From Tubiluchus corallicola (Eukaryota; Animalia; Priapulida): a stretch of 64,000 bases of DNA. How positions within the stretch are numbered: position 1 is the stretch's first letter; every line of letters starts with the position of its first letter. Shown here piece after piece: positions 55,001-58,774 of this stretch. The DNA lies in the NCBI GenBank assembly GCA_030141605.1, contig JAQGDQ010000204.1, forward strand, positions 310,001-374,000. The letters are read 5' to 3'. The notes beneath the pieces were generated by a model that saw nothing but the letters and a program-made list of their open reading frames with translations, was not told where the DNA came from and made no database searches. The translations under genes and the position numbers were made by a program.

Positions 55001-58000
55001 TTGGGTTTATATGACTCTTAATTGTTGCAGTTCTTTCCGAACGGATATGCATTTGCAACCGGCTCAGACGACGCCACCTGTCGGCTGTTCGACATACGAG
55101 CGGATCAGGAATTAGCACTGTATTCACATGACAACATTATCTGCGGAATAACGTCCGTAGCATTCTCTAAGTCAGGCCGCCTACTCTTTGCGGGCTATGA
55201 TGATTTTAACTGTAATGTATGGGACACAATGCGAACGGAACGTTCCGGTAGGTGTTACCTAACTTGTTCTCAATGTTTGTGGCAGTAGTCCATAATTTTA
55301 TAGTTATTTTAAGGTGAGAGTAATATACTTTCTCCTTTATTGTTCCTCGCATCTTTTCGAATTTCAGTTCTTTGCCGCTTCAGTCACCTACTTAGGTGGA
55401 TAAATTTCCTGTTATCATATATTAACCAACTCACTTAGATTCCTAAATTCTATGTTACTTAGTTTATTGGTCCTAAGAGATGTAGCTTATAGATACAGCT
55501 GACATTTGTAGACATTTCCTGCATAAAGTACACATACACACAGCTGTTGGCTATTTGTGTATTAGTGTTTCATGAATTAGCATTTTATGGGAATAGTTAA
55601 GTTAAACACATGAAGAAATCATATTTTATCATCTCACGTTACGTAGCTAAAATTAGATTCACCTCTAGATGGAGGGTAGCAAATTAGTGGAGTGTGTGGT
55701 GGCATGTGTATTGCATGCAATGATCTTAGTAAGTTAAATTAAGATGCTTTTGTACACAAGTTGCAAAACTGCATATAAGCAATTGAACATACATTTGTAA
55801 TCCGAAAACAGTCACAAGTGACATGCCTGCAGCTGTACTCTGGTTAGCAGAAATCTACTTGATCAGTAGTTCACCTAAACGAACATACAGTTATATGTAA
55901 CTAAGTATATCTTTTTAATCATTTCACACCAAGTAATTAAATCAGAATATTAAATAATTCATTTGTAATTCTGCTGTTTTTTTTCTGTTATACATTCTCA
56001 TTCTCCTGTTCTATTGTCACCTTTCATAGTAAATGGTAACAGTAATTATGCAGTAACACACTGCATTCTATTGCAACACTGTGTTCCATTGTTTTATCAT
56101 ATTTAAATTATTGTCTAGTGTGCATCGTTTGCCAATTGAAAAGGAACAGAATATTTGTGAGAAGAGGGCTTTAAGTCGATTTGATTCTCTGTTTAGTTTC
56201 CTTTAAATTATAAAGCTCACATAATAAAAAAAATAATGTTGCAATTTTTACAGAATGAATTTTGTCTTAGTAGAAGTTCTTACTTGAAGATCGAATGCAG
56301 TAGCACGCGAGTGGGGGCAATAAGTTTAAGCTTAGCGAAAAGCTCCGCAGTAATTTGCACTGAAAGTCAGCAATGCAGCAATTGTTTAGTAGCTGTTGGT
56401 CGCATCCTTACACTGTCGTGTAGCTCAATTCATATAACTCTATGTTCTAAAGTATTCAGCGCAGTACGTGATCAGTTCAGTCTAGTCACTTGACAAACAC
56501 AAGCACACGTTCAAAAAATTAGTTAACCATTTCAAGTCATTTTATACAGGTACTCAAGTGTTATTGAAAGAAGCACTTCTCTGTTACAAAAACTTTAAAA
56601 TTTAAAATGCTAAAAACATGTCAAAAATGGTTAACCACTTTTAAAATTTACTCTTCAAGCATGTTTCAGAAGTTTCAAAAGTGGGCTGAAATGCAGAAAA
56701 ATGCATTTGCGGGAGCTTATAGCACTTGCAGCACTCCCCCAGATCTTCTATCTGGCATAGCTGTCCCATTTTTTGTAACCCGCCTTTCTCCATGATACCC
56801 AGGAATTAATACTGATCTTGTGCTAACTCAATAAAAATGCTTACGTATTTTGATCTCTTCCCAACCCTCATTTGTTTAACCTGTGTGAGCAGAATTCATT
56901 GAAAGCAGCAGTTAAATGCTGGCGTCTTCTCACCTGCACATAAAATTGATTTCATCTGCCACGTGGTGATGCATACAGGCACCTGTCAGTAGGCATTATT
57001 TTAATTTACCAGTATCTATTGATTTTCTTAGTTTTGTATTTCTTGCTGTTACAGCCAGGGCGTGTGTGTTGCTTGTGTATGCGTGCGTGCAAGACGTGGT
57101 AGATCAGACACTGACTGAGTGCTGTACTGGAGAATACATGATTTGTATTTCCTTGGCTGCACACCACACACACACACACACACACACACACACGCACACA
57201 TGCACACACACGCACTGTCATGTATGACTAATTGTGCTCAGGGATTGCTACAGAAAACAGGCGGCTCCTGGTAACCAGAAACCAATTACCTAATTTATTA
57301 GTGATAGATTTTCTCATCCATTTGTTGTTTGAATATCGTGTACAATTCCTTACTGTTATTAGTTATTACATTTATTTCAGGTCTAAAAAAATTTGTTTCC
57401 CTTCAAGAACAAATTTCTGTTAAATGTCTGTTTAAATTTCTATTAAAATGTTAGTTACATCTCTCCTAGCAGTTTCACTGTGATAGTTCTAGCTTCACAT
57501 CACACAAAGTACGAAATAAGAGCTAAATACGAAAAAAGGGCTAATAATCTACACTCTATGTAGCTTACTGAAATAATTTGTGCAAGTAACTGGCTTTTAA
57601 GCTATTAATGCTTCCATTTGATAAACAAGCTGTTAAAATGTTTCCATACATGGACTTGGTGTGTCTGCTTATTCAAAACTGTAGATTACAAACATTTTGT
57701 TAATTAAAATTGTACTACACATATTGCTATTTAGTTTTACATTTGATTAGCAGTTTGTGCTAGTCAGAATTTCTGTACTAGTTTTTTTTTCAGTTGTTCA
57801 CATGTTACACACTTACTGTATGTATTTTTTTTCACTTGCAAGTTTGCATGGTGTGTATTTATTTGCATATTAATGTTTGATGTTCATTTGTGTTGTACAT
57901 GCAGGTGTCCTTACTGGACACGATAATCGTGTCAGTTGTTTGGGGGTGACTGAAGATGGGTATGCCCTCTGCACTGGGTCATGGGACAGCTTCTTAAGGG

Positions 58001-58774
58001 TGTGGAATTAGGACAGGCTTCTCGTGTTCTTGGATTTTGGAAAGGTTTACACTTTTTTGTTTTTTTTCCATTGGGTGTTACTTGTAGAGGATAAAACATT
58101 CCTGTCAGTCTATACTTTATTTTACTTTTCGTGCATTTCACAATTTAGCACTTAATTCTTTTAGGAAAATCAAATGATTTTGAACTGACTTGGAAATGTT
58201 TTTTCATCCAATGAACTCCCAGCAACATTTGTTTTAAGCATGACAGTATTAATTTTTTCAGTACAAAAATGTACTTGGCACGTTTTGTTTATGGCACTTA
58301 TTGTTACCATGGAGCTACAAGGAGCAAAATCAAGTACTTTTGAGATTCTGCAGAATAATCATTCTGCATGAATTATAGTTACTGCCAATAGGTGTCTCTA
58401 GGGGTATTGCATGTGTAGAACTTTTATATTATAAGAATGCAGTTTATTTGCAAATATTGCTTTCTTTGTAAGTTTACCATCGTTTTGTGTAAAGTGAAGC
58501 AGTGTTACCTATAAACTGCTCTAGAAAATAAACCCGTGCATGCTTGCTTTAATTTTTTACTTTCTTGTCAAGTAAAATTCAGAACCACTACTTTTACATA
58601 ATATGCTTTTTGACTCGAGAATTGTATAATGTTTCAAATGATTGCACTTGACTCTTGTTCTTTGCAGGCGTCCTCGCTGGACACGACAACAGAGTTAGTT
58701 GCTTGGGTGTAACAGATGATGGTACAGCGGTTTGTACAGGATCTTGGGATAGTTTCCTCAAGGTGTGGAACTAG
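34020..58774 (+). CDS. GNB1: Heterotrimeric G-protein beta subunit (GNB1-4 class), 341 aa, with duplicated alternative exons
   Basis: Exons 34020-34079, 41827-41972, [42512-42575 or 42637-42700], 52059-52137, 52346-52496, 52893-53022, 54080-54151, 55031-55247, [57905-58011 or 58668-58774] sum to 1026 nt (341 aa plus stop). All introns are GT-AG and phases are consistent. The translation closely follows G-beta1 (MSSELEQLR...[14 protein letters not shown]...GSWDSFL.VWN). Confidence 0.96.
36306..39420 (-). mobile_element. Decayed L2/CR1-group LINE in G-beta intron 1
   Basis: APE motifs [20 protein letters not shown] and [17 protein letters not shown] motifs [33 protein letters not shown] and [20 protein letters not shown]; 3' stem-loop aagggtggc...gccaccctt at about 36388-36429. 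Confidence 0.9.
41827..41972 (+). CDS. GNB1: G-beta coding exon 2
   Basis: [48 protein letters not shown](R); donor gtaaca. Confidence 0.95.
42512..42575 (+). CDS. GNB1: G-beta mutually exclusive exon 3a
   Basis: 64 nt; acceptor tttatttacag; [21 protein letters not shown]; donor gtgagc. Confidence 0.92.
42637..42700 (+). CDS. GNB1: G-beta mutually exclusive exon 3b
   Basis: 64 nt; acceptor ttttcgtttcag; [21 protein letters not shown]; donor gtaagc. Confidence 0.9.
49590..49790. promoter_or_regulatory. Candidate intronic enhancer or internal promoter with an RFX X-box and K50-homeodomain sites
   Basis: TAATCC at 49607-49612, TAAGCC at 49640-49645, TAATTA at 49651-49656, X-box GTTGCCATAGAAAC at 49719-49732; locally GC/CpG-enriched. 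Confidence 0.45.
50925..50991. repeat. CT-rich low-complexity tract
   Basis: cctctctccctctcactctccctctccttccctccctc... pyrimidine run. Confidence 0.8.
51050..51798 (+). mobile_element. Decayed Tc1/mariner transposon remnant
   Basis: 51418-51496 reads [25 protein letters not shown], matching the mariner/Tc1 WPPxSPDLNPLD motif with a frameshift; ends in gcacccgta; the left boundary is uncertain. Confidence 0.6.
52059..52137 (+). CDS. GNB1: G-beta coding exon 4
   Basis: [26 protein letters not shown]; donor gtaagt. Confidence 0.95.
52346..52496 (+). CDS. GNB1: G-beta coding exon 5
   Basis: [50 protein letters not shown](C); donor gtaaga. Confidence 0.95.
52893..53022 (+). CDS. GNB1: G-beta coding exon 6
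   Basis: [43 protein letters not shown]; donor gtaact. Confidence 0.95.
54080..54151 (+). CDS. GNB1: G-beta coding exon 7
   Basis: [24 protein letters not shown]; donor gtaagt. Confidence 0.95.
55031..55247 (+). CDS. GNB1: G-beta coding exon 8
   Basis: [72 protein letters not shown]; donor gtaggt. Confidence 0.95.
57160..57215. repeat. (CA)n microsatellite in G-beta intron 8
   Basis: Imperfect CA run of about 55 bp. Confidence 0.9.
57905..58011 (+). CDS. GNB1: G-beta alternative terminal exon 9a
   Basis: Acceptor tgtacatgcag; [41 protein letters not shown] at 58527-58532. Confidence 0.9.
58527..58532 (+). terminator. Candidate poly(A) signal for the exon 9a isoform
   Basis: AATAAA followed by a T-rich tract, upstream of the 9b acceptor. 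Confidence 0.6.
58668..58774 (+). CDS. GNB1: G-beta alternative terminal exon 9b
   Basis: Acceptor cttgttctttgcag; [35 protein letters not shown]; long AT-rich 3'UTR with AATAAA at 60046 and 61109. Confidence 0.92.

What the first reader, a model, noticed from the sequence alone, without database searches (positions are those of the whole stretch)
57905..58774. Duplicated alternative last exons giving a different WD7 blade and a different 3'UTR
Seen: two 107-nt coding segments, each ending VWN-TAG, with many synonymous differences but only 5 amino-acid changes. Exon 9a has an AATAAA about 520 nt after its stop and just before the 9b acceptor. Exon 9b has candidate signals about 1.3 and 2.3 kb downstream. 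Inference: this is an old duplication maintained by selection, coupling the protein variant to a short or long 3'UTR (stability or localisation).
Basis: partly seen in the sequence, partly recalled or inferred. Interest (0 to 1): 0.75.

Follow-up and report, generated by a model that had tools for sequence, protein, structure and literature searches.

The report
Swappable tail exon in G-protein beta
An invertebrate gene for the beta subunit of G proteins carries two old copies of its last coding exon, and contigs of a close relative's likely RNA show the first copy either spliced in ahead of the second or skipped, which would give two protein tails on one shared messenger tail, as in human KRAS.

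Summary
The gene is a heterotrimeric G-protein beta subunit (Gβ1-4 type, 341 aa) of an animal, probably a protostome. Its last coding exon is duplicated: 30 of 107 bases and 5 residues differ, with near-saturated synonymous change. Spliced contigs from one probable RNA run of a close relative show exon 8>9a, exon 8>9b and also 9a>9b, through a donor 33 nt after the 9a stop. So 9a is a stop-containing cassette exon, and both forms share the 3'UTR after 9b. This is the KRAS4A/4B layout, not alternative last exons with short and long UTRs. That run has no cover on the proposed 9a UTR, and its AATAAA is at chance level. The same gene has a second duplicated pair (exon 3a/3b, untested by RNA), so up to four isoforms are possible. 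No such switch in a Gβ gene turned up in five literature searches or in a human catalogue, and this scan has not noted it on other DNA. Verdict: new member of a known kind. Functional effect inferred only.

The parts
34020..34079 (+). Gβ coding exon 1 (start codon)
   Evidence: exon 1-2 join seen as a loose end in X1 (table 7)
41827..41972 (+). coding exon 2
   Evidence: AG/GT ends; X1 contig 41827-41972 with 0 differences
42512..42575 (+). exon 3a, first copy of a second duplicated pair (64 nt)
   Evidence: sequence only, no RNA cover seen
42637..42700 (+). exon 3b, second copy (64 nt), 61 nt after 3a; predicted mutually exclusive with 3a
   Evidence: both or neither gives a frameshift (99 or 80 aa); 17 of 64 bases differ; sequence only
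52059..52137 (+). coding exon 4
52346..52496 (+). coding exon 5
   Evidence: X1 joint to exon 6
52893..53022 (+). coding exon 6
   Evidence: X1 joints
54080..54151 (+). coding exon 7
   Evidence: X1 joints
55031..55247 (+). coding exon 8, the common upstream exon
   Evidence: Pfam WD40_Gbeta positions 234-304; X1 joints to 9a and to 9b
57905..58044 (+). exon 9a: 140-nt cassette exon, 107 coding nt with TAG at 58009-58011, then 33 untranslated nt and a weak donor
   Evidence: X1 joints 55246>57904 and 58046>58670 skipping 623; contig length 23+145+29=197 fits; WD40_Gbeta 307-340
58045..58667 (+).
58668..58774 (+). exon 9b coding part (translated when 9a is skipped, untranslated when 9a is included)
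58775..60350 (+). shared 3'UTR, at least this far; true end not determined (AATAAA 60046 is passed in X1; ATTAAA 60535 and AATAAA 61109 are candidates)
   Evidence: X1 contigs 58670-58903 and 58918-60305, loose end at 60350; hexamers

Best explanation
A tandem copy of the last coding exon of this G-protein beta gene serves as a stop-containing cassette exon: contigs of a close relative's likely RNA show it spliced between exon 8 and the terminal exon, or skipped, which would give two 341-residue proteins that differ at 5 positions of the seventh WD40 repeat on a shared 3'UTR. Shown: both copies are intact and under purifying selection; junctions 8>9a, 9a>9b and 8>9b exist; the stop lies 33 nt before the last junction (38 nt in the relative). 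Inferred: the short stop-to-junction distance would keep the 9a message below the 50-55-nt threshold of junction-dependent nonsense-mediated decay (rule recalled from mammals, not known to apply in this animal). Inferred: the weak 9a donor, the U-run behind it and three downstream UGCAUG motifs would make inclusion tissue-regulated, probably by an Rbfox protein (motif meaning recalled). Inferred: the swap tunes the Gβ surface near the Gγ C-terminus. Both copies have given up the usual Met325 (Tyr in 9a, Thr in 9b; Gβ1 numbering), a residue I recall as lining the pocket for the Gγ NPF phenylalanine.
For:: X1 joints 55246>57904 (depth 203), 55249>58670 (437) and 58046>58670 skipping 623 (203). 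Shifting that last cut by two bases gives GT 58045..AG 58667 and the same length. One 197-nt contig holds the end of exon 8, all of 9a and the start of 9b, and its length is reproduced exactly by that path. X1 also joins exons 1-2, 5-6, 6-7 and 7-8 at the predicted sites, so it is spliced sequence; pS 0.92, pN 0.10; no X1 cover on the 9a-9b intron. In X1 the 9a coding part has at most 1 substitution and no gap (the 5 extra letters lie after the stop, read from the from_end value), against about 5.6% substitutions in the UTR (P about 0.016). The 9a donor scores -2.5 against 9.5-12.3 for the 9 other donors, which trained the matrix. Three TGCATG in the intron: 11 of 5000 shuffles and 1 of 102 window tiles reach that. 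Position 325 is Met in 123 of 138 homologues, Tyr in 1 and Thr in 1.
Against: All splice evidence comes from one run (X1) whose RNA status is a guess by the tool, held as contigs, from a diverged relative or haplotype (75 substitutions and 60 gap letters over a 1388-nt UTR contig). Contigs show presence, not absence or level. No protein evidence. The TGCATG motif was 1 of 5 motifs looked at, so its P value is after the fact. No paper searched named Met325 or Tyr85 as Gγ contacts, so that step is recall. Three of the five changes are conservative, and E322 and R337 are common in homologues (93 and 33 of 138). No 9a-like animal C-terminus was among the 120 best of 1194 hits, so wider conservation is not shown. 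A weak donor with a downstream AATAAA is also what a composite internal/terminal exon looks like.
Confidence: 0.75

Rival explanations
1. Composite exon: in some cells the weak 9a donor is ignored and the RNA is cleaved after the AATAAA at 58527, so 9a is terminal with its own 0.5-kb 3'UTR.
For: The donor AAG|GTTTAC is far from the gene's consensus. AATAAA at 58527 is followed by a U-rich stretch. Most human C-terminal duplicated-exon swaps are described as alternative poly(A) events (PMC8373072 passages).
Against: X1 has no cover on 58047-58669, and its 9a contig runs unbranched across the donor into 9b. The hexamer is at chance level, 0.33-0.52.
Confidence: 0.15
2. 9a is an unproductive or neutral exon: inclusion feeds decay, or gives a protein that works the same as the 9b form.
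For: Inclusion puts a stop upstream of a junction and lengthens the 3'UTR by 140 nt. Three of five changes are conservative.
Against: A poison exon would not keep 29 of 34 residues while synonymous sites saturate. The 9a path has about a third of the summed junction depth (203 of 640; a rough figure). The coding part is conserved in the relative while the tail has an insertion.
Confidence: 0.07
3. Artefact: an assembly duplication in the window, or a chimeric contig or template switch in X1.
For: The 9a>9b joint rests on one contig and has a few bases of microhomology. X2 shows depth 0 at 58012.
Against: The copies differ at 30 of 107 bases, mostly synonymously. The joint falls on GT..AG, where the two sides share no long word. 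X1 holds both copies. An X2 contig covers 58474-59025 across the 9b acceptor with 1 difference.
Confidence: 0.03

Closest known systems
KRAS exons 4A/4B (PMC5945503 passages; PMC8373072 supplement row)
   Same: Homologous duplicated C-terminal exons. The upstream one is a cassette with a stop near its 3' end, and the downstream exon stays in the mRNA untranslated.
   Different: Different gene family. The KRAS copies differ widely in a membrane-targeting tail (recalled); here only 5 residues of a folded WD40 repeat change.
GNAO1 exons 7-8 (.1/.2), and local exon duplications in Gα genes of amphioxus, tunicates and fishes (PMC5896119 passages)
   Same: Duplicated terminal or internal exons that diversify a heterotrimeric G-protein subunit at interaction surfaces.
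   Different: These are alpha subunits. GNAO1 swaps a pair of final exons; here a single exon of the beta subunit is included or skipped before a shared terminal exon.
Tandem exon duplication-derived substitutions (PMC8373072: 236 human events, 77 C-terminal)
   Same: The general class, including genes with more than one such event (14 in human).
   Different: GNB1, GNB2, GNB3 and GNB4 have 0 occurrences in the paper's supplementary table; GNB5 was not searched.
Gβ1-4 family (Pfam PF25391 WD40_Gbeta; PDB Gβ1 chains such as 1gg2_B)
   Same: Both copies align to residues 307-340 of the profile, and 9a to 307-340 of Gβ1. The predicted protein is 89-91% identical to the best full-length animal hits.
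   Different: Four named arthropod or echinoderm isoform pairs and same-species pairs compared differ elsewhere (1-3 residues near the exon 2/3 junction, an N-terminal extension, or scattered sites), not in the last exon.

Membership tests
Gβ1-4 subunit gene | About 340 aa with an N-terminal helix and seven WD40 repeats, ending in W-N | tested here: met
   Nine exons give 341 aa in all four isoform combinations. Exons 8, 9a and 9b match PF25391 at E 1.5e-41, 2e-15 and 4.4e-17, each below the whole-protein cut-off as fragments.
Tandem exon duplication-derived C-terminal substitution | Two homologous tandem exons in the same phase | tested here: met
Tandem exon duplication-derived C-terminal substitution | Each copy is used in spliced transcripts | tested here: met
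   X1 joints 8>9a and 8>9b; one run of a relative, RNA status guessed by the tool
Tandem exon duplication-derived C-terminal substitution | Both proteins are made | not testable with these tools
   no proteomic data
KRAS4A-type stop-containing cassette exon | Upstream copy has a donor after its stop and is joined to the downstream copy | tested here: met
   joint skipping 623 nt, GT 58045..AG 58667
Alternative last exons with separate poly(A) sites | Upstream copy runs on into its own 3'UTR and is cleaved there | tested here: not met
   X1 joins across that stretch and has no cover on it; one run only, rare forms not excluded
Mutually exclusive internal exons (3a/3b) | Same length and phase, frameshift if both or neither, very short intron between | tested here: met
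   64 nt each, 61-nt intron, 99 aa or 80 aa if both or neither
Mutually exclusive internal exons (3a/3b) | Each copy is seen in transcripts | tested here: inconclusive
   X1 depth is 0 in the bin holding both copies and 1.25 in the bin holding constitutive exon 4; the tool filters conserved, human-like records

The most novel reading that the evidence does not exclude
One Gβ gene makes up to four subunits through two independent duplicated-exon switches (3a/3b and 9a/9b). Both remodel the same face, the pocket for the Gγ C-terminal tail (positions 84-87 and 325), so this animal sets Gβγ pairing and membrane release by splicing where vertebrates use separate GNB paralogues.
Probability: 0.25. 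Interest if true: 0.65.

Novelty: new member of a known kind. Interest (0 to 1): 0.42.

Why it matters
Gβ is among the most conserved signalling proteins. Duplicated-exon switching is described for Gα subunits, but I found no report of it for Gβ1-4. Natural single-gene variants that change a few residues at positions that rarely vary would be a clean test of which Gβ surfaces set Gγ preference and signalling output, and of whether Gβ diversity can arise without gene duplication. It also shows how a duplicated terminal exon can become a cassette by using a donor just past its stop, instead of a new poly(A) site.

Tried and rejected
No whole genome is held for this window, so Gβ copy number and Gγ partners are unknown. 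No listed run is on record as RNA; X1 is a guessed RNA run. A closer, lower-stringency laying of X1 on 55000-61400 was not obtained, so the exact differences in the 9a tail, weak cover of the intron and the 3' end stay open. A homologue search with the 9a frame gave 1194 hits; none of the 120 listed is an animal protein with the 9a signature (the only Tyr325+Leu327 row is a divergent EukProt entry, P0081). A search with exon 2 gave 529 hits, at best 90% among the 120 listed, with no identical relative. A metagenome scan for the 9a motif gave 4 loci, each with one GSWD motif and a W-A terminus, so no duplicated last exon. A quick tree of 52 rows (50 of the fetched proteins, chosen for being named or full length, plus two window isoforms) put the protein among protostomes at SH-aLRT 83-84, outside the starred arthropod and nematode groups; the careful search did not finish and the phylum is unresolved. 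Folding 57800-58800 gave no shuffle control and was not used. Lack of X1 cover beyond 60956 and over exons 3a/3b is no evidence. Searches for Gβ residue contacts with Gγ found none by number. A search for composite exons gave nothing used. Earlier scan notes held nothing on this gene.

Full report
Host gene. The finding lies at the 3' end of a heterotrimeric G-protein beta subunit gene on the + strand. Six-frame reading and splice-site checks give nine coding exon positions from 34020 to 58774; every internal boundary is AG/GT, and the product is 341 aa. Exons 8, 9a and 9b match Pfam WD40_Gbeta at positions 234-304, 307-340 and 307-340, and 9a aligns to residues 307-340 of Gβ1 chains in the PDB. 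The best full-length animal hits are 89-91% identical. A quick tree puts the protein among protostomes with weak support and no phylum. No genome is held.

Observation. The two segments are as described. They differ at 30 of 107 bases: 19 of 34 full codons change synonymously and 5 change the residue, at Gβ1 positions 309 (T/A), 322 (E/D), 325 (Y/T), 327 (L/V) and 337 (R/K). Uncorrected pS is 0.92 and pN 0.10. That pattern means an old duplication with both copies under purifying selection, not an assembly echo. The AATAAA hexamers are at 58527, 60046 and 61109. The first is unremarkable: the chance of at least one in 623 nt is 0.52 from the gene's introns and 0.33 in shuffles.

RNA evidence. 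Two runs hold part of the stretch, and both were laid on 41700-61600. X2 covers introns and shows no exon joint, so it behaves as DNA. X1, guessed to be RNA, is from a diverged relative or haplotype. It joins exons 5-6, 6-7 and 7-8 at the predicted sites and shows exon 1 as a loose end before exon 2. At the finding it has three joints: exon 8>9a (depth 203), exon 8>9b (437) and 58046>58670 skipping 623 nt (203). Moved two bases left, the last is a GT(58045)..AG(58667) intron of exactly 623 nt. One 197-nt contig carries the end of exon 8, all of 9a and the first bases of 9b, and its length equals 23+145+29. The mean depths of the two bins over the region are reproduced without any cover on 58047-58669. 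So in this run 9a is a 140-nt cassette exon (145 nt in the relative) with its stop 33 nt (38 nt) before the junction, and 9b with its UTR follows in both forms. X1 UTR contigs continue to at least 60350, past the hexamer at 60046; contigs cannot show the true end. In X1 the 9a coding part has at most one substitution and no gap, against about 5.6% substitutions in the UTR (P about 0.016). The three listed coding differences in exons 8 and 9b are synonymous. Limits: one run, contigs only, RNA status guessed, depth a poor measure of level.

How it most likely works. Including 9a ends translation in 9a and turns 9b into untranslated sequence; skipping it uses 9b. This is shown at the RNA level in the relative and inferred at the protein level. 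The stop-to-junction distance is under the 50-55-nt limit of junction-dependent decay; that rule is recalled from mammals and may not apply here. The 9a donor (AAG|GTTTAC) scores far below the nine other donors and is followed by a U-run. The intron holds three TGCATG, reached by 11 of 5000 shuffles and 1 of 102 tiles of the window. From recall, that is the Rbfox site, which promotes inclusion from downstream; it was 1 of 5 motifs examined, so it is a lead. For function, position 325 is Met in 123 of 138 homologues with a complete C-terminal block (of 236 fetched at that point), and Tyr and Thr in 1 each. 9a also carries rare T309 (5 of 138) and L327 (8 of 138). Passages of PMC8961292 say that the Gγ NPF motif is embedded in Gβ and that a prenyl pocket forms between blades 6 and 7. 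One passage of PMC8351738 says that the NPF Phe binds a hydrophobic pocket of Gβ. That Met325 and Tyr85 line this pocket is my recall; no call confirmed it.

Second pair. Exon 3 is also duplicated (42512-42575 and 42637-42700): 64 nt each, 61 nt apart, 17 bases different, with a frameshift if both or neither are used. Copy 3b has Val-Ile at positions 84-85, seen in 0 of 148 homologous blocks. X1 gave no cover there, and almost none on constitutive exon 4, so use is untested.

Rivals. A composite exon that is sometimes terminal at 58527 stays possible in other tissues (0.15). An unproductive or neutral 9a (0.07) fits poorly with its protein conservation. An artefact (0.03) fits poorly with the GT..AG joint and with both copies being in X1.

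Comparison with what is known. The layout is that of KRAS: a passage of PMC5945503 states that exon 4B stays in the 4A message untranslated because 4A has a stop at its 3' end. PMC8373072 (passages and a search of its one supplementary file) catalogues 236 human tandem exon duplication-derived substitutions, 77 of them C-terminal, including KRAS and GNAO1, with no GNB1-4 entry. PMC5896119 (passages) documents repeated exon duplications in Gα genes. Five literature searches, seen as listings, gave no Gβ case; the library lacks most subscription journals. Isoform and same-species pairs fetched for other animals differ elsewhere. Homologue and metagenome searches found no animal 9a-like tail, so the spread is unknown. 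The scan's notes hold nothing on this gene.

Verdict. Observation confirmed. Interpretation partly supported: the duplication and the use of both copies hold, the separate 3'UTRs do not in the one run seen. New member of a known kind, interest 0.42. The four-isoform, Gγ-pocket reading has probability about 0.25.

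Noticed in passing
window 42512-42700: Second duplicated exon pair (3a/3b) in the same Gβ gene, 64 nt each with a 61-nt intron; predicted mutually exclusive. 3b replaces the usual Ser-Tyr at 84-85 by Val-Ile.
   Followed up: partly
window 58365, 58408, 58537 (and 57845, 42784, 42947): TGCATG (Rbfox-type, recalled) motifs cluster downstream of 9a; two more lie downstream of 3b.
   Followed up: partly
window 33993-33994: A strong pyrimidine tract and AG 25 nt before the start codon suggest an upstream non-coding exon or a trans-splice site.
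   Followed up: no
window 37131-38637 (- strand), 18059-18553 (-), 1541-1840 (+), 51421-51573 (+): Broken frames that resemble reverse transcriptases and transposases (names by recall), two of them inside introns of the gene.
   Followed up: no
window 54508-56092, run X2: Depth rises to hundreds or thousands around exon 8 against about 5 elsewhere, with an adapter-like loose end at 56092; unexplained, perhaps enrichment or other organisms' exon 8.
   Followed up: no
proteins P0245/P0261 and P0135/P0265: Annotated mite and cockroach Gβ isoform pairs differ by 1-3 residues near the exon 2/3 junction, next to the exon that is duplicated here.
   Followed up: partly
window 57156-57215: (CA)n microsatellite about 700 nt upstream of the 9a acceptor.
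   Followed up: no
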